Of a DNA stretch of 35,664 bases, positions 2,788 to 9,129 are shown piece after piece. Position 1 is the first letter of the stretch. The number at the start of each line of letters is the position of its first letter. A model generated the notes under the pieces. The model worked only from the letters and a program-made list of their open reading frames with translations, had not been told where the DNA came from and searched no databases. This DNA comes from a virus. Its lineage: Duplodnaviria > Heunggongvirae > Uroviricota > Caudoviricetes. The translations under genes were made by a program, and so were the position numbers. Location of the stretch: the IMG/VR virus record IMGVR_UViG_3300045988_119994; one strand, given 5' to 3'.

Positions 2788-3915
2788 TCAAACCTTGATT
2801 TTTGCCCATTCCTTACCACGATCATCATGGTATTTAGCTGTCTGGTTAGGCGATTTATGTCCCAGAAGTTTTTGGGTGTCGACGCCCTGAGCTTCGTAAA
2901 GTCGCTCAGATAAAGATCTTTGTTCATGGAATGTGGCGGGCGAACCTTCACCCCAGTCAATGCCTGCTAAATCCCTCGCTTTACTGAAATTCATCGTCAA
3001 TGTATTGGCTTTTACTTGCGCGCCACGTTCAGCCTGTGAAGTAGTACGAAAAAAATGTACAAGGTATGGGCTGACTGCATAGTCACGGCAGCGGGCTACT
3101 ACATCGCGTAAACTCCAGTTAATTGCATTGAGGCGAAGGGAAAGCGGGATGGCGATTTTGCTCCCGGTTTTTTCTTGGATGACGTGAAGATGATCATCCC
3201 AAATATCGCTAAATTTCATACGTGAGATATCACCTAACCGTTGGCCGGTAACCAGTGCTAACAGCATGGCATTCCCCATATAACGATGGCGGGCATCTGC
3301 GATATCAAAGATTTTTTGCCATTCTTCAAGACTTAACCGTTGTCGGGTAATTTTTCTTCTGGGTTGTTTGGTTGCCAGTGCTGGATTATAGCCCGGAGGG
3401 ACTTCCCCATAGTGTTGTGCCTCCTTGAATACATCAATTAGAACGGAGCGGACTACTTGCGCCATCCTCGGTTGCCCGGCAGTGATATACTCGTCAAGTA
3501 ATTGTGCTATATCCCTTACATCAACTGATGAAATTAATTTCATTCCTGCTCGTTCCCTGAGCAAGGATACTGGTTTGGCTTTCTGTTTATAGGTGTTTAG
3601 CTTTATATCGCCACTTTCCAGTCTGTCATCCTGGATTGCTTGATAGCGATCTAACCAGGTTGACGTTGTGATTGCTTTTCCTTTGCTGGTTGCGATCCTG
3701 TCACTGATAGCCAGAATCTGCCGGGTTCTTTGCTCAGCCAGGCGTGAATTTGCCTCAGTGGCAATAGCAATGGCTTCAGCTTCGTTTGTGCCTAAAGAAT
3801 GAAACTTCCCGGTCACTGGATGTTTATATCGCCAATAGACTTTATTTACTTTTCTACTATAAAGCGGATACAAGTTCGGGACTGAAACATTATTTTTACG
3901 TGGTCTGGCTGCCAT
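2788..3915 (-). CDS. intE: tyrosine integrase (lambda-integrase family), e14 IntE-like
   Basis: 375-aa ORF next to the icd-derived att; C-terminal catalytic region with conserved Arg, HxxR (HEQRS) and Tyr (YHDDRG); 5' end overlaps xis by 20 nt; size matches e14 IntE as recalled. Confidence 0.9.
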   Translation of the reverse strand: MAARPRKNNVSVPNLYPLYSRKVNKVYWRYKHPVTGKFHSLGTNEAEAIAIATEANSRLAEQRTRQILAISDRIATSKGKAITTSTWLDRYQAIQDDRLESGDIKLNTYKQKAKPVSLLRERAGMKLISSVDVRDIAQLLDEYITAGQPRMAQVVRSVLIDVFKEAQHYGEVPPGYNPALATKQPRRKITRQRLSLEEWQKIFDIADARHRYMGNAMLLALVTGQRLGDISRMKFSDIWDDHLHVIQEKTGSKIAIPLSLRLNAINWSLRDVVARCRDYAVSPYLVHFFRTTSQAERGAQVKANTLTMNFSKARDLAGIDWGEGSPATFHEQRSLSERLYEAQGVDTQKLLGHKSPNQTAKYHDDRGKEWAKIKV

Positions 3916-4141
3916 TACTTAAAATCCTTTGTAGAATAATAGAATCATTTTTCTTGATGACAGGAGTAACTAATTCCCCAACTAACTCTGCGTCCTCACG
4001 CACTCGCCATAGTCGACCTTGTTTCATTGCCGGTGGACAAAATAAATTCTGCTTAGCATAACGACGCAATGTGGACACGCTTGGAGGATTACTTCTGTAT
4101 TTTTCCGCAGCCCATTCCTCAAGTGTCAGCATTTGAAGCAT
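3896..4141 (-). CDS. xis: excisionase (lambda Xis-like)
   Basis: MLQMLTLEEW...FCPPAMKQGRLWRV resembles lambda Xis (MYLTLQEW...); start chosen at Met6 of the track ORF (GAGG 9 nt upstream) giving 81 aa; alternative starts at 4156 and 4132. Confidence 0.75.
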   Translation of the reverse strand: MLQMLTLEEWAAEKYRSNPPSVSTLRRYAKQNLFCPPAMKQGRLWRVREDAELVGELVTPVIKKNDSIILQRILSNGSQTT

Positions 4142-4184
4142 TTTTGATAACCTCATTTCTTTTGCTACAAAACTATTTCACTAG

Positions 4185-4733
4185 TTAATTTCGCTGTCTG
4201 GATTGTTTATGCATCTTATGCAGCTCTTTAAAGCGTTCCATAAACATCCCGTAGGCATGGCCCGGTGCCAGTGGAATCACGTTGAACATATCTGTTGCCG
4301 GGATGCCTTCCAGTACAGGCCAGAAAGAGCCATCATCAAGCCCGAGATCGCGGCGTTCGGTTGCCAGCATGATGAGATCGGCATATTTCACGGGCGTACT
4401 CATAACCGGGGGTAACCCGTATTTCTCACGGATTACGGCGTCTATTTTTTCTTCCATCTGTTTATAGTCAGGAAGAAGGCGTTTCAGTGGAGCGGGGATG
4501 TCCTGGCAATACACTTCTGTTGCATCATGCATTAACGCTTCAAAAGCAAATTCCTGCGGTACCAGTTGGCTGCAAAGAACCGCATGTTGGGCGACGCTGT
4601 AGAAGTGTGAAAGATGTCCTGCAAAGCGACAGATATTTGAAAGGGAAAACGCGATATCGTTAATAACGATATCGTCTTTATTTATCCTGTCATAATAAAA
4701 ATGCTTCCCAGAAAAAGTTTTAATAAATGACAT
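4185..4733 (-). CDS. yfdR: HD-domain 5'-deoxynucleotidase, YfdR/YfbR-like
   Basis: SVAQHAV...MHDATEVYCQDIPAP motif (His...HD...E...D) typical of YfbR/YfdR family; ATG at 4733 with GGAGAA SD; 182 aa; synteny with YfdQ- and YfdP-like genes. Confidence 0.75.
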   Translation of the reverse strand: MSFIKTFSGKHFYYDRINKDDIVINDIAFSLSNICRFAGHLSHFYSVAQHAVLCSQLVPQEFAFEALMHDATEVYCQDIPAPLKRLLPDYKQMEEKIDAVIREKYGLPPVMSTPVKYADLIMLATERRDLGLDDGSFWPVLEGIPATDMFNVIPLAPGHAYGMFMERFKELHKMHKQSRQRN

Positions 4734-5751: not shown

Positions 5752-6114
5752 TTAACGACCTGCTGCGCGGAGTTTTCCGTCAGGTTCACCGGCAAGAGTC
5801 AGTAACTGTCCCTGGTCTTCCTGCAGAATAGTCAGGCGACCACCGCGATTGACATACATCGGCGTTTCGGTGGTGTCTTCTTCGGAAATTTTCCCGCGGT
5901 TAGTCGGGCGAACATATGAGAGTTTGTGTTTGATTTTCACACGGTTCTCATCAAATGGTTCGATTTCCAGGTTGAGTGAGACCTTACCTTTGGTTTTCGT
6001 GTTCATCACACCGGAAGCGACTTCACTGAGAACTGCGCCGATTTTGGTTTCAAATACGCCGCCGTCCAGCTCCCCGATAAATGCCTGCACATCAGTACTG
6101 CGTTCGCTAGCCAT
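5752..6114 (-). CDS. yfdP: conserved prophage early protein, YfdP-like
   Basis: 120-aa ORF from ATG at 6114 with GAGGAG SD (track ORF extends N-terminally through GC-rich sequence, judged non-coding); synteny as above; symbol tentative. Confidence 0.6.
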   Translation of the reverse strand: MASERSTDVQAFIGELDGGVFETKIGAVLSEVASGVMNTKTKGKVSLNLEIEPFDENRVKIKHKLSYVRPTNRGKISEEDTTETPMYVNRGGRLTILQEDQGQLLTLAGEPDGKLRAAGR

Positions 6115-6162
6115 TTTGCTGCTCCTCATCATATCGACCCTGCAAGGCCGATTAGTTTCTCC

Positions 6163-6251
6163 ACAAAACAGAGAAGAACACCTGCGGTGGCAGCCGCCAG
6201 GATGGATTGGGTTATGAGCCCGTCGTCCGGTGATGCTCTTCTCTGTTTTGT
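6163..6251. other. long inverted repeat (17/18 bp arms, 53-nt loop) inside a GC-rich non-coding stretch
   Basis: ACAAAACAGAGAAGAACA at 6163-6180 pairs with TGCTCTTCTCTGTTTTGT at 6234-6251; A-tract before and T-tract after. Confidence 0.5.
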
Positions 6252-6515
6252 AAAAAGGACGGTACCAGCCGGAAGCAAGGGTACAAACTGGTACCGCCAG
6301 GACTACACACAGCATAAAGTTGTGGTGCCGGGTGCCTCCCGGTGCCTGGCGAAGGTTGCACACCAGGCGGGTGGGTATCCACAGAAGGTCGACTGTCAGC
6401 CTCAACCTTAACCCGCGTGCGCTGAGCCGCATTCACCACAACGCTAAGGATTCTCTCTGGTTGAAAATACTTAGCTGTTATGTGCCTGCTTTTAGCCACA
6501 TCAGGCGAGGTGGAC

Positions 6516-6567
6516 CTGGTTATTCCCCAACAACAAGGATTCGGTTAATCTGGTTATCCCCAACAAC
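6516..6567. repeat. two direct repeats CTGGTTAT(T)CCCCAACAAC immediately upstream of the 6583 ORF
   Basis: Copies at 6516-6534 and 6550-6567, 34 bp apart; possible regulator-binding sites. Confidence 0.5.
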
Positions 6568-6582
6568 GCAAAAGGAAAAGAA

Positions 6583-7017
6583 ATGTCCGGTAATATCTAT
6601 ACGCTGTACAAATCCCACTGTGAAAATGTTGGAAAGTATCGGGGCATTGAAATCAGTGGGGTAGTGTCATCAGTCGAAATAAGCAAAGTTGAATCAAGGG
6701 CAACATTACTTACTCTTTTGGACCTTGTCTTACATGAGCACCGGAAGAAATTCGGCACTCCCTATAATCAGTTGAATGGGAAAAAGGCTCTGGTTCACCT
6801 TATTCTGATGAAGCATCACTGGATGCCAAAACAGATTAATGAGATGAAATTTGATGAACTTCTTCTTTCAATTCAGGATGAACTCACACTTGATAAAATA
6901 AGCGTAACCGCCCAGAAATTTTTAGATTATCGAGACTGGAGATCACAAATTCATCACTTTGATGATTTTGACGAAAATGAATGGGATCCTAATTTGTCTG
7001 CACAATATCTAAAGTAA
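6583..7017 (+). CDS. hypothetical protein (immunity-region gene opposing the early-left operon)
   Basis: 144-aa ORF, AGGA SD 7 nt upstream of ATG; AT-richer than flanks; no recognisable motif. Confidence 0.5.
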   Translation: MSGNIYTLYKSHCENVGKYRGIEISGVVSSVEISKVESRATLLTLLDLVLHEHRKKFGTPYNQLNGKKALVHLILMKHHWMPKQINEMKFDELLLSIQDELTLDKISVTAQKFLDYRDWRSQIHHFDDFDENEWDPNLSAQYLK

Positions 7018-7195
7018 CATCCTGTGATAAAACCGTGATTTCCTGATCCAGTTTTTTTAAGGAGTCTATTGTTTCCTGTCGATAAGACAGCACTTCACGA
7101 AGCTGGTTTATAGCTGCCAGCTTCTTTGTCATCCACTCATAAATTTCCTCATCTGTGTAGCCAGGCGCGACGATTTTGGGTTCTGTTTTGTGCAT
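6989..7195 (-). CDS. hypothetical small protein, first gene of the leftward early operon
   Basis: 68-aa ORF from ATG at 7195 with GAGGAG SD; not arginine-rich so not obviously N-like; 3' end overlaps the convergent 6583 ORF by 29 nt. Confidence 0.45.
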   Translation of the reverse strand: MHKTEPKIVAPGYTDEEIYEWMTKKLAAINQLREVLSYRQETIDSLKKLDQEITVLSQDVTLDIVQTN

Positions 7196-7254
7196 TTCAC
7201 ATCTCCTCAAGTTATCAGTTACTTGTTGATGGGGACCAGATTGTTAAAGAGCTA

Positions 7255-7278
7255 AGCGTCCTGTAGGGCGCTTTTTTG
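7255..7278 (+). terminator. candidate rho-independent terminator (plus strand) between the 144-aa gene and cI
   Basis: 7-bp stem (AGCGTCC / GGGCGCT, one G-U), TGTA loop, then TTTTTTGTT. Confidence 0.45.
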
Positions 7279-7443
7279 TTGCTAACGAATCATCCTGGAC
7301 TTCATATGCCCCAGGCGGCTACTTCGTGGGCGTCCTGCCTGTTCGTTTTTGACATTTACTGACTGCTTACGACACATGCACCGTGTTGCAACCAGATTTT
7401 GTTGTAATCCTGTAGTTGGTCTGGAACAAAAGATAAAATTAAA

Positions 7444-7480
7444 TTGCGAGATATGCAAGTGATATTTGCGAGATATGCAA
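7444..7480. promoter_or_regulatory. oL-like operators: two identical 15-bp sites TTGCGAGATATGCAA, 22 bp centre to centre
   Basis: Sites at 7444-7458 and 7466-7480; TTGC-N7-GCAA inverted half-sites; same motif recurs in the cI-cro intergenic region. Confidence 0.6.
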
Positions 7481-7534: not shown

Positions 7535-8227
7535 TTAATTATGTCTCTTAAGGGTTTGCGACTGACTGATTAAGACCTTTCCAAAGACCATGAATCGGTG
7601 TTCGTTTTCGCTAGTAATTCCCCATTCACGGTAAATCTGGTTATCAGAAATCACCAGCAGTTTGTCAGGAATCATTTGAAGTCTTTTAACGTATATTTTG
7701 TCATCAAAACCAAAGACATATATACCATCACCATCAAACTGATTGATGCTGACATCAACGAAGATGAGATCTCCTGGCTCAATGGTTGGACACATACTGT
7801 CCCCACGAACGTTGATAACTTTGATGTGATTGGCTGGTCGTCCGCCGAACATTGATACAGCATTATCAGTTCTGTATTCGATGGCATGAATCACATCAAT
7901 GACATCACCGCCCTGGATAAGGCCATTTCCCGCACTGGCACTGATATCCAGCATTTCAATACGGAACACATCCTTCACCTGCGCAACATCCTCATTATTA
8001 CTGTTTTTATATACAGTATTACTTTTGTGGGCAGAGGTAAAGAGATCAGCAATATCAACACCTAAGCTCTTGGCAATATTACTCAGTGTTTGTTCGGTAA
8101 ATTGTTTTTGCTTACCCGTTTCTAAGCGCGAGATGTTCGCCGCATCTACTCCTATCGCTTCAGCGAGATCGGCGATTTTCATGTTCTTCGCTTGGCGAAG
8201 TTGTCTGACTCGGTTTCCTATGTTCAT
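7535..8227 (-). CDS. cI: CI-type repressor (N-terminal HTH, C-terminal peptidase S24 / LexA-like autocleavage domain); CohE-like
   Basis: 230-aa ORF; HTH in MKIADLAEAIGVDAANISRLETGK; C-terminal GDSMCPTIEPGDLIFVD and KRL motifs typical of S24; divergent from cro; weak SD. Confidence 0.9.
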   Translation of the reverse strand: MNIGNRVRQLRQAKNMKIADLAEAIGVDAANISRLETGKQKQFTEQTLSNIAKSLGVDIADLFTSAHKSNTVYKNSNNEDVAQVKDVFRIEMLDISASAGNGLIQGGDVIDVIHAIEYRTDNAVSMFGGRPANHIKVINVRGDSMCPTIEPGDLIFVDVSINQFDGDGIYVFGFDDKIYVKRLQMIPDKLLVISDNQIYREWGITSENEHRFMVFGKVLISQSQTLKRHN

Positions 8228-8324: not shown

Positions 8325-8585
8325 ATGCAATCACCATTACGAAATGTGCGTAAGGCGCATGGTTTCACTTTGCAGCATGTTGCTGCGGGTGTTCAAGTCA
8401 ATCCAGCGACGTTGAGTCGTATTGAGAGGCTGGAGCAGATTCCATCTATCGAGCTTGCAGAACGTTTAGCCAATTTTTTTAAGGGTGAAGTCAGCGAAAT
8501 GCAGATTCTTTATCCGGCACGTTTTCAATCTAGCCAAAACCAGAATGGGTTTAAACCACAGGAACAGGAGGTGAACCGTGGGTAA
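8325..8585 (+). CDS. cro: Cro-like HTH regulator
   Basis: 86-aa ORF divergent from cI; GGAGG SD; HTH in FTLQHVAAGVQVNPATLSRIERLE. Confidence 0.85.
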   Translation: MQSPLRNVRKAHGFTLQHVAAGVQVNPATLSRIERLEQIPSIELAERLANFFKGEVSEMQILYPARFQSSQNQNGFKPQEQEVNRG

Positions 8586-9129
8586 GCATCACTGGAAAGT
8601 AGAAAAACAGCCTGAGTGGTACGTGAAAGCTGTCAGAAAAACTATCGCAGCGTTGCCGGGGGGGTACGCTGAAGCTGCTGACTGGCTGGATGTAACAGAG
8701 AACGCATTATTTAACCGCCTTCGTGCCGATGGCGATCAGATTTTCCCGCTGGGATGGGCAATGGTTTTGCAACGTGCTGGTGGAACTCACTTCATTGCTG
8801 ACGCTGTGGCGCAGTCTGCAAATGGCGTCTTTGTGTCTCTTCCTGATGTCGAGGATGTGGACAACGCCGATATCAACCAACGCCTGCTGGAGGTCATTGA
8901 ACAGATCGGCAGTTATTCAAAACAGATTCGTTCAGCAATTGAAGACGGTGTAGTGGAACCGCATGAGAAGACAGCAATTAACGACGAGCTGTACCTCTCA
9001 ATTTCGAAGCTGCAGGAGCATGCAGCACTGGTCTACAAAATCTTTTGCGTTTCAGAAAGTAGTGACGCCCGCGAGTGTGCAGCTCCGGGCGCCGTGGCGT
9101 GTCGTGACTGTGGAGAAACTAACGCATGA
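8578..9129 (+). CDS. early regulatory protein, YmfL-like
   Basis: 183-aa ORF with GTG start overlapping cro stop, AGGAGG SD; synteny with e14 ymfL as recalled; no motif verified. Confidence 0.6.

What the first reader, a model, noticed from the sequence alone, without database searches (positions are those of the whole stretch)
6583..7278. Convergent AT-rich gene pair in the immunity region (144-aa plus-strand ORF against a 68-aa first gene of the leftward operon)
Seen: the 144-aa ORF (6583-7017) is transcribed against the leftward early operon, has its own SD and upstream direct repeats, overlaps the 3' end of the 68-aa minus-strand ORF by 29 nt, and is followed by a plus-strand hairpin with T tract (7255-7278). 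The 68-aa ORF occupies the position of lambda N but is not arginine-rich. Established: the region next to cI is where lambdoid phages carry exclusion genes (rexAB, sieB). Inference: candidate exclusion or anti-defence moron with possible antisense interplay.
Basis: inference. Interest (0 to 1): 0.45.

Follow-up and report, generated by a model that had tools for sequence, protein, structure and literature searches.

The report
Convergent prophage gene pair, likely immunity/counter-immunity
Two overlapping, head-on genes beside the prophage repressor form a conserved mobile cassette whose layout matches recently described prophage defence genes paired with a self-protection gene, although neither protein has a known function.

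Summary
Both ORFs are real genes. The 144-aa protein belongs to NCBIfam NF033230 ('ECs1072 family') and PHROG 5286. About 76 clusters at 50% identity exist. A pLDDT-94 all-helical model has no PDB or BFVD fold match. The 68-aa protein is PHROG 1744.

The new result is that the two genes form an obligate module. All 50 diverse loci found through the large gene carry a convergent small ORF overlapping its 3' end by 29-272 nt. In the reverse scan, 78 of 80 loci found through the small gene carry the large one. The 770-bp cassette (6514-7283) sits in a swap site between conserved flanks and occurs in 408 of 5,426 complete E. coli genomes.

Relatives sit after PL, after cro, or after four unrelated Q antiterminators. 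The small gene always runs with the lytic operon and the large gene against it. The large gene has its own conserved extended -10 motif in 38 of 42 distinct upstream regions.

This is the 'noncontiguous operon' layout shown experimentally for Tai/Ati (phi80) and Tha/Ith (S. aureus 80alpha), but with unrelated proteins. Best reading (about 0.45): a lysogen-expressed immunity or exclusion gene plus a lytic-phase antagonist. Function is untested.

The parts
6514..7283 (.). The swappable cassette (770 bp) holding both genes, their leaders and the terminator
   Evidence: blastn against SfII and SfV: homology stops at 6513 and resumes at 7284. SfIV and E. coli Ecol_AZ146 carry the whole cassette at about 99%. 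It is in 408 of 5,426 complete E. coli genomes.
6485..6513 (+). End of the conserved left flank: hairpin GCCTG-N13-CAGGC followed by GAGGTGG. This is the first half of the leader shared with distant family members
   Evidence: Upstream alignment by eye of 20+ loci. The group consensus is GTGCCTG-N13-CAGGCGGCGGTGGTATCTTGG...CCAAGAAGG-N8-ATG. The same segment recurs beside other cassettes in L127-L133.
6509..6567 (+). Two direct copies of CTGGTTATYCCCAACAAC. They are a duplicated, altered version of the family's extended -10/leader (TGGTTATTC and TGGTTATCC instead of TGGTATCTT)
   Evidence: The window is one of 4 of 42 upstream regions that lack the exact TGnTA[TC]nnT motif.
6583..7017 (+). 144-aa gene (called 'BIG' here). 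It belongs to the ECs1072 family (NF033230, PHROG 5286) and is a soluble all-helical protein
6989..7195 (-). 68-aa partner gene (PHROG 1744). It is acidic, with an N-terminal motif EP-x4-PG-x-[ST]-x2-E-I-x2-W followed by a helix
   Evidence: PHROG E 7.8e-35. 39% identity to the L008 partner, E 4e-16. An HMM of the first 45 residues hits only the convergent partner ORFs among 2,792 ORFs. Polymorphism is 10 synonymous to 13 non-synonymous, with no stops, in 59 haplotypes.
6989..7017 (.). 29-nt 3'-3' coding overlap of the two genes
   Evidence: The overlap is 29-272 nt in all 50 loci of the first sample and mostly 74-113 nt in the reciprocal sample.
7099..7124 (+). Strong plus-strand hairpin inside the small gene. 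It is a possible first stop or processing site for the 144-aa mRNA
   Evidence: -15.6 kcal/mol, z -3.6; listed. L095 has an analogous plus-strand terminator 30 nt after its large gene's stop.
7223..7242 (-). Inverted third copy of the repeat (AATCTGGTCCCCATCAACAA on the minus strand), in the small gene's leader
   Evidence: pair I1: 20 nt, 75% complementary to 6547-6566.
7241..7252 (-). Exact GCTCTTTAACAA, which I recall as the core of the E. coli rrn boxA (UGCUCUUUAACAA), on the PL transcript just upstream of the small gene
   Evidence: It is the only zero-mismatch copy in the window. It is also present beside the module in SfIV, L004 and L127-L134. Its function is inferred only.
7254..7279 (+). 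Intrinsic terminator for plus-strand transcription. If used, the 144-aa mRNA is antisense to the whole small gene, including its ribosome-binding site
7284..7350 (-). 67-bp PL-leader segment conserved across phages with different immunity regions and different cassettes
   Evidence: SfII, SfV, SfIV, Citrobacter phiNP, Pantoea AH07, L127-L133.
7429..7480 (-). OL operators (two copies of TTGCGAGATATGCAA) and the probable PL (TTGCAT-17-TATCTT, read by eye)
   Evidence: for the operators. The promoter reading is my inference; the stringent scan did not list it.

Best explanation
The locus is a self-contained, horizontally mobile two-gene cassette arranged as a 'noncontiguous operon'.

The 144-aa gene (ECs1072 family) is transcribed against the phage lytic operon. 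It uses its own weak, repressor-independent extended -10 promoter, so it is made in the lysogen. I infer that it acts there as an immunity or exclusion (abortive-infection type) factor against other phages, and would also harm its own phage.

The 68-aa gene is the first gene read from PL. In relatives it is the first gene read from PR after cro, or from PR' after Q. When the resident prophage goes lytic, two things happen together:
- Strong head-on transcription, together with the obligatory complementary 3' ends, lowers expression of the 144-aa gene.
- The small acidic protein is made and neutralises the 144-aa protein already in the cell, probably by binding it.

Shown here: both genes are real and conserved; they are co-inherited; the orientation rule holds; the 3' overlap is conserved; the promoter motif and terminators are present; the cassette is mobile.

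Inferred: expression timing, the antagonism between the two proteins, and the anti-phage function.
For: - Obligate pairing. 50 of 50 loci sampled through the large gene have a convergent ORF overlapping its 3' end. 41 of these partners are recognised by an HMM built only from the non-overlapping N-terminus, with no off-target hit among 2,792 ORFs. 78 of 80 loci found through the small gene have the large gene on the opposite strand.
- Orientation rule at three kinds of lytic promoter. The module sits next to S24 repressors and PL (window, L008, L119-L135, L138). It sits after cro in L009. It sits after Q proteins of four families: PF03589, PF06530, DUF1133 and PF06323. L008 has an 11/12 PL-like promoter directly before the small gene. 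L095 has a PR'-like promoter, then a tR'-like terminator, then the small gene.
- Own promoter for the large gene. TGnTA[TC]nnT ends 27-41 nt before the start codon in 38 of 42 distinct upstream regions, against a background of 0.9%. The gene also has its own plus-strand terminators.
- Moron hallmarks. The cassette has low GC, exact cassette boundaries, and occurs beside different immunity types.
- Neighbourhood. A true SieB (PF14163, E 1.2e-21) sits in the same orientation beside the module in L126, and a STAND NTPase sits beside it in L102. Lambda sieB is convergent with N.
- Experimental precedent for this logic. In phi80, taiEcA is antisense inside the Q operon and constitutive in the lysogen. 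Its level falls when Q is expressed, and the adjacent late-operon gene atiEcA neutralises it; binding of an Ati to its Tai was shown for the Salmonella TaiSalB/AtiSalB pair (PMC11364771). [quoted passage not shown] BstA/aba lies next to cI (PMC8585504).
- Weak expression hint. ECs1072 appears as a regulated transcript in uninduced O157 Sakai cultures (PMC2241611).
Against: - There is no functional or homology evidence for defence. PADLOC gives 0 hits and Pfam gives none for any of 48 family members. PDB sequence and fold searches and BFVD give nothing.
- There is no homology to phi80 gp52/gp51, the presumed TaiEcA/AtiEcA (hhalign probability 0.4% and 0.3%).
- The window's own copy lacks the exact promoter motif. 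It has TGGTTATTC and TGGTTATCC, and the stringent promoter scan finds no plus-strand promoter. Lysogenic expression of this particular copy is therefore not assured.
- One relative (L137) has the large gene without a partner. Two loci (L140, L143) keep the small gene with only a remnant of the large one.
- The small protein is under only moderate constraint, and its C-terminus tolerates frameshifts.
- Co-inheritance is also expected from physical overlap alone.
Confidence: 0.45

Rival explanations
1. The locus is a lysogenic-conversion moron with a non-defence function, such as host physiology or virulence. The 144-aa protein changes the host during lysogeny. The small gene and head-on transcription simply switch it off in the lytic cycle.
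For: The architecture evidence is the same. The SfIV authors flagged ORF35/36 as candidates for virulence studies (PMC3851460). No defence-family signal was found. ECs1072 changes with growth phase in Sakai.
Against: A dedicated protein antagonist made only in the lytic cycle makes sense mainly if the product harms phage development. The neighbouring cargo includes SieB and a STAND NTPase. All experimentally resolved cases of this layout in prophages are immune systems.
Confidence: 0.2
2. The locus is a lysis-lysogeny fidelity device of the phage itself. The 144-aa protein, or merely its transcription, damps leaky expression from PL, PR or PR' in the lysogen. The small protein relieves this once the phage commits to lysis.
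For: The module always sits immediately downstream of a major lytic promoter, with transcription directed towards it. A boxA and a conserved leader lie just upstream in the window.
Against: The plus-strand terminator at 7254-7279 stops the transcript before PL. Closely related phages (SfII, SfV) manage without the cassette, so it is accessory rather than core regulation. The strong protein conservation would not be explained by a purely transcriptional role.
Confidence: 0.15
3. The locus is a toxin-antitoxin or addiction module that stabilises the prophage, with RNA-level control like the convergent type I systems of Bacillus prophages (recalled from memory).
For: The genes are convergent with complementary 3' ends. 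The module is mobile and two-gene.
Against: Neither protein is small and hydrophobic: the maximum 19-residue hydropathy is 0.84 and 0.29. The genes are not co-transcribed. One of them depends on a repressed lytic promoter, so it could not act as a constantly replenished antitoxin. There are no TA family hits.
Confidence: 0.07
4. The 68-aa ORF is this phage's N-type antiterminator acting at the adjacent boxA site, and the 144-aa gene is an unrelated neighbour.
For: It is the first gene after PL, directly downstream of a hairpin and an exact boxA core.
Against: There is no arginine-rich motif; the protein is acidic with pI 4.8. Homologues sit after Q and after cro and always accompany the large gene. 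L008 has the pair but no boxA. The hairpin is weak on the minus strand.
Confidence: 0.03

Closest known systems
Tai/Ati of coliphage phi80 (tail assembly inhibition and its counter-defence; PMC11364771)
   Same: [quoted passage not shown] It is made in the lysogen. An adjacent small gene on the operon strand, made only in the lytic cycle, neutralises it. The pair travels together in moron sites. Many relatives of the window's module sit in the same Q-to-late-genes region.
   Different: There is no sequence relationship (hhalign probability 0.4% and 0.3% against phi80 gp52/gp51, which I equate with TaiEcA/AtiEcA by size and position only). In phi80 the two genes are divergent with a 20-nt 5' overlap and the counter-gene lies downstream. 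Here they are convergent with a 3' overlap and the small gene lies upstream. The target and activity of the 144-aa protein are unknown.
Tha/Ith of S. aureus phage 80alpha (PMC11087260)
   Same: [quoted passage not shown] Mutually exclusive transcription by head-on RNA polymerase collision couples immunity to the phage life cycle.
   Different: Tha is a HEPN RNase driven from the cI promoter, and the inhibitor has its own constitutive promoter, which is the reverse assignment of promoters. The window protein has no HEPN match in Pfam. The hosts are Gram-positive.
Lambda and P22 SieB (with P22 esc/sas, recalled from memory)
   Same: The map position and orientation match: a plus-strand gene convergent with the first PL gene, beside the immunity region. 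A real SieB sits beside the module in L126.
   Different: SieB is a membrane protein (PF14163). The 144-aa protein has no PF14163 match and no hydrophobic segment. Lambda sieB abuts N without overlap, and N is not a dedicated partner.
BstA/aba of Salmonella prophage BTP1 (PMC8585504)
   Same: It is a prophage defence gene next to cI with cognate self-immunity encoded in the same locus.
   Different: aba is a DNA element, not a protein. The BstA protein family is unrelated.

Membership tests
NCBIfam NF033230 'ECs1072 family phage-associated protein' / PHROG 5286 | Full-length match to the family HMM above the curated cutoff | tested here: met
   157.8 bits against a cutoff of 70, residues 4-144. 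PHROG 5286 E 1.5e-90 over 1-144. Both families are annotated as function unknown.
PHROG 1744 (small partner) | Full-length HMM match | tested here: met
   E 7.8e-35, profile positions 1-68 of 68.
[quoted passage not shown] | Antisense gene flanked on both sides by genes of one operon | tested here: met
   Gene maps of about 49 distinct contexts: 37 of 45 left neighbours and 39 of 47 right neighbours lie on the opposite strand. In the window the order is PL, small gene, antisense 144-aa gene, then yfdP/Q/R.
Noncontiguous operon | Own promoter for the antisense gene | tested here: inconclusive
   An extended -10 motif is present in 38 of 42 relatives, but the window copy carries an altered, duplicated version and the stringent scan gives no hit.
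Noncontiguous operon | Overlapping complementary transcripts with reciprocal regulation | not testable with these tools
   Coding overlap makes at least 29 nt of complementarity unavoidable. Transcript mapping would need RNA data.
Tai/Ati immune and counter-defence pair | Homology of the immune protein to Tai and of the small protein to Ati | tested here: not met
   hhalign probability 0.4% (A3 against phi80 gp52) and 0.3% (A7 against gp51).
Tai/Ati immune and counter-defence pair | Anti-phage activity and inhibition of tail assembly | not testable with these tools
   This needs plaque and induction assays.
Tha/Ith | HEPN domain with an Rx4-6H motif in the immune protein | tested here: not met
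   No Pfam HEPN hit in any of 48 members. No histidine lies 4-6 residues after the conserved R54.
SieB superinfection exclusion (PF14163) | PF14163 match and membrane segments | tested here: not met
   No Pfam hit at E<=1. Maximum 19-residue hydropathy is 0.84. Only the position and orientation match.
Lambda N-type antiterminator (for the 68-aa ORF) | Arginine-rich RNA-binding motif, and a fixed position after PL and nutL | tested here: not met
   2 Arg and pI 4.8. Homologues lie after Q or cro.
Known anti-phage defence systems (PADLOC-DB 2.0) | HMM match to any catalogued defence protein | tested here: not met
   0 families for either protein at E<=1.

The most novel reading that the evidence does not exclude
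The ECs1072-family gene and its overlapping partner are a previously unrecognised, widespread enterobacterial prophage immunity/counter-immunity system. It is built on a new helical fold. The conserved 3'-3' coding overlap is itself the switch that couples immunity to the phage life cycle. The whole unit can be plugged in behind any lytic promoter (PL, PR or PR').
Probability: 0.3. Interest if true: 0.7.

Novelty: new variant of a known kind. Interest (0 to 1): 0.55.

Why it matters
If the model holds, about 7.5% of complete E. coli genomes carry an uncharacterised phage-immunity gene with a built-in antidote, as do many Shigella, Salmonella, Serratia and related prophages. The effector has no relatives of known structure, so it would add a new family. 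It would extend the 'noncontiguous operon' solution to prophage autoimmunity, shown so far for Tai/Ati and Tha/Ith, to a third, unrelated module with a different geometry. It would also give a simple genomic signature for finding more such pairs: a small operon-sense gene whose 3' end overlaps an antisense gene that has its own extended -10 promoter. Even if the function turns out not to be defence, the strict conservation of a convergent coding overlap across relatives of 20-40% identity is a clean natural case for studying regulation by head-on transcription.

Tried and rejected
**Function searches that returned nothing**
- The afdb50 library was unavailable.
- Literature searches for the accessions and family ids found no papers.

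**Scans that failed or added little**
- The search for related loci with the broad alignments A3 and A6 failed for lack of conserved stretches.
- The genome-contig scan gave only 3 loci.
- The first viral scan returned 80 identical copies. They were useful only for polymorphism counts, and the 20:0 synonymous excess in the large gene is biased by that selection.

**Errors I corrected**
- I first scored several loci (L124, L127-L134) as lacking a partner. That was an artefact of my -250 nt filter. They carry a second partner type with a 254-272 nt overlap.

**Ideas considered and dropped**
- The repeats as a conserved operator flanking the module: other loci do not share the motif. The repeats look like a duplicated, altered promoter/leader.
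- The 7254-7273 hairpin as a boxB-like nut element: it is weak on the minus strand.
- The 226-aa ORF 5752-6432 is an over-extension of yfdP (120 aa, 5752-6114).

Full report
**Context.** The window is an SfV/SfII/SfIV-like lambdoid prophage of E. coli/Shigella.
- The S24 repressor cI is at 7535-8227 (-), cro at 8325-8585 (+), and a cII/YmfL-like gene at 8578-9129 (+).
- The leftward genes yfdP, yfdQ and yfdR lie at 5752-4185.
- Two identical operators, TTGCGAGATATGCAA, lie at 7444-7480, with related sites between cI and cro. PL therefore fires leftward from about 7430.
- The cI terminator is at 7515-7498 (-).

**The observation.**
- The small ORF is best read as 68 aa from ATG 7195, which has a GAGGAG Shine-Dalgarno. 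PGAP annotates it the same way.
- The hairpin at 7254-7273 is a true plus-strand terminator. It folds at -12.6 kcal/mol with a U6 tail on the plus strand, but only -7.5 kcal/mol (z -0.07) on the minus strand.
- A second strong plus-strand hairpin lies inside the small gene at 7099-7124 (-15.6 kcal/mol, z -3.6).
- I add a third, inverted copy of the upstream repeat at 7223-7242, in the leader of the small gene.

**Both ORFs are genes.**
- The 144-aa protein matches NCBIfam NF033230, 'ECs1072 family phage-associated protein' (157.8 bits against a cutoff of 70), and PHROG 5286.
- An exhaustive profile search finds 76 clusters at 50% identity, nearly all 145-155 aa. Conserved residues are L50, R54, L64, G66, A69, H72 and W134.
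- With that alignment AlphaFold gives a confident all-helical model (pLDDT 94.1, pTM 0.88).
- No Pfam, PADLOC or PDB-sequence hit exists for it or for any of 48 relatives.
- The 68-aa protein is PHROG 1744. It is soluble and acidic (pI 4.8) with only two arginines.
- In 59 haplotypes of the E. coli/Shigella cassette it shows 10 synonymous and 13 non-synonymous changes, with no stop or frameshift. That indicates moderate purifying selection.

**It is a cassette in a swap site.**
- Homology to SfII and SfV ends exactly at 6513 and resumes at 7284. Those phages carry different cargo there: a 63-aa plus-strand gene in SfII and a 98-aa minus-strand gene in SfV.
- SfIV, phages Kati and 569R4, and many E. 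coli chromosomes carry this cassette at 98-100% identity, beside different repressors.
- 408 of 5,426 complete E. coli genomes hold at least 80% of it.
- The SfIV paper lists the gene (ORF36) as unique among Shigella serotype-converting phages and of unknown function (PMC3851460).

**The central new result: an obligate convergent pair.**
- I collected 50 loci through the large gene. Their proteins are 20-72% identical to the window's.
- Every one has a minus-strand ORF whose 3' end overlaps the 3' end of the large gene, by 29-272 nt.
- An HMM built only from the first 45 residues of five partners, which is the non-overlapping part, found the partner in 41 loci (E 2e-25 to 8.5e-4). It found nothing else among 2,792 ORFs, even at E<=10.
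- Eight loci carry a second partner type that is also conserved in its non-overlapping part. One locus (L014) carries a third, coiled-coil-like ORF.
- In the reverse direction, a scan with the small protein returned 80 viral loci. 78 of them have the large gene on the opposite strand, 77 of them overlapping by 74-113 nt and one separated by a 99-nt gap.
- Exceptions exist. L137 has the large gene alone. L140 and L143 keep the small gene with only a C-terminal remnant of the large gene, which has been replaced by a different gene behind the same leader.

**Orientation rule.** The module occurs at three kinds of site.
- Beside an S24 repressor and PL: the window, L008, L119-L135 and L138.
- After cro in the rightward early operon: L009.
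- Directly after Q antiterminators of four unrelated families, between Q and the lysis genes: L007, L011 and L095-L118.

In all of them the small gene runs with the lytic operon and the large gene runs against it.
- Naive gene maps put 37 of 45 left neighbours and 39 of 47 right neighbours on the strand opposite to the large gene.
- L008 has an 11/12 sigma-70 promoter immediately before the small gene.
- L095 has a PR'-like promoter, then a tR'-like terminator, then the small gene. It also has a plus-strand terminator 30 nt after the large gene's stop and a minus-strand terminator just beyond its 5' end.

**Own promoter.**
- In 38 of 42 distinct upstream regions, an extended -10 motif TGnTA[TC]nnT ends 27-41 nt before the large gene's start codon. 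The background rate is 0.9% per window of that size.
- In the repressor-side group the whole 70-nt leader is conserved far better than the protein.
- The same leader drives other plus-strand cargo. In L133 it precedes a 157-aa membrane protein.
- The window shares this leader up to the cassette boundary.
- The promoter strength of this particular copy is therefore uncertain, and the stringent scan finds none.

**Mechanism.** The layout means the two mRNAs are necessarily complementary, and strong lytic transcription must collide with transcription of the large gene. It is the 'noncontiguous operon' arrangement.
- Two experimentally dissected prophage systems use it to avoid autoimmunity.
  - In phi80, taiEcA is antisense inside the Q operon and constitutive in the lysogen. 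Its level falls when Q is expressed, and the adjacent late-operon gene atiEcA neutralises it; binding of an Ati to its Tai was shown for the Salmonella TaiSalB/AtiSalB pair (PMC11364771).
- BstA/aba shows self-immunity at the cI-adjacent site (PMC8585504).
- Lambda's sieB has the same map position and orientation relative to N. A genuine SieB lies beside the module in L126.
- I therefore propose that the 144-aa protein is a lysogen-expressed immunity or exclusion factor. The 68-aa protein, together with head-on transcription, would be its lytic-phase antagonist.
- This is inference. There is no homology to Tai/Ati, SieB, HEPN proteins or any catalogued defence protein, and no expression data. 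The only hint is a microarray listing of ECs1072 in uninduced O157 Sakai (PMC2241611).

**Rivals.**
- A non-defence lysogenic-conversion function with the same off-switch: 0.2.
- A lysis-lysogeny fidelity device: 0.15.
- A toxin-antitoxin-like module: 0.07.
- An N-like role for the small ORF: 0.03. This is contradicted by its composition and by its presence after Q and cro.
- Spurious ORFs are excluded.

**Verdict.** The kind of system is known since 2024. The protein families, the 3'-3' overlap geometry and the ability to sit behind several different promoters are new. Interest is moderate to high because the module is common in E. coli and structurally orphan.

Noticed in passing
window 6250-6472 (-): A sub-threshold but clear match to the prophage sRNA family STnc100 (RF02076): 43.1 bits against a gathering score of 47, E 3e-7, over the full model length and with its own terminator stem. 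It lies in the conserved left flank, downstream of the cassette on the PL transcript. STnc100 is reported to be related to PasD sRNAs (bioRxiv 10.64898/2026.05.13.724894).
   Followed up: partly
window 7241-7252 (-); also L001, L004, L127-L134: An exact GCTCTTTAACAA, which I recall as the rrn boxA core. It is the only zero-mismatch copy in 35.6 kb and sits on the PL transcript just after a hairpin and before the first gene. The same 12-mer follows a different hairpin beside the module in L127-L134. It may be a nutL-like site in phages that have no recognisable N.
   Followed up: partly
window 7284-7350: A 67-bp segment directly downstream of the immunity-specific PL/OL region is conserved at 79-97% identity across phages with different repressors and different cassettes (SfII, SfV, SfIV, Citrobacter phiNP, Pantoea AH07, L124-L133). 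This suggests a functional PL-leader element.
   Followed up: no
L007 about 4400-4440 and group-B loci; window 6976-6985: The conserved E-W-D-P near the C-terminus of the large protein is encoded by the palindrome TGGGATCCCA. In relatives with longer overlaps the partner therefore also reads P-W-D-P from the opposite strand, so the same palindromic DNA encodes one motif in both proteins. In the window the small gene stops just short of it.
   Followed up: partly
L133 4838-5700; L126 about 3650-4170; L102: The same hotspot holds tandem cargo in other phages. L133 has a second cassette behind a window-type leader, encoding a 157-aa membrane protein. L126 has a SieB (PF14163, E 1.2e-21). L102 has a 407-aa STAND NTPase next to the Q-site module.
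   Followed up: partly
L140 and L143, about 1700-2470: The small partner is retained with only the last 15-50 codons of the large gene. The rest has been replaced by a different convergent gene (about 165-190 aa) behind the same leader. This looks like cargo exchange that preserves the overlap.
   Followed up: partly
window 5752-6432 (-) and 6129-6440: The 226-aa ORF listed mechanically is an over-extension. The real gene is yfdP (120 aa, 5752-6114). The GC-rich 6115-6500 stretch is non-coding or sRNA, and PGAP marks a 'frameshifted hypothetical' there in a near-identical genome.
   Followed up: partly
L138 1070-1312 (-); proteins P0137, P0141: Some close relatives of the 68-aa protein share the first about 47 residues and then diverge through frameshifts into longer C-termini that run further into the large gene. 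The N-terminal part is therefore the constrained domain.
   Followed up: no
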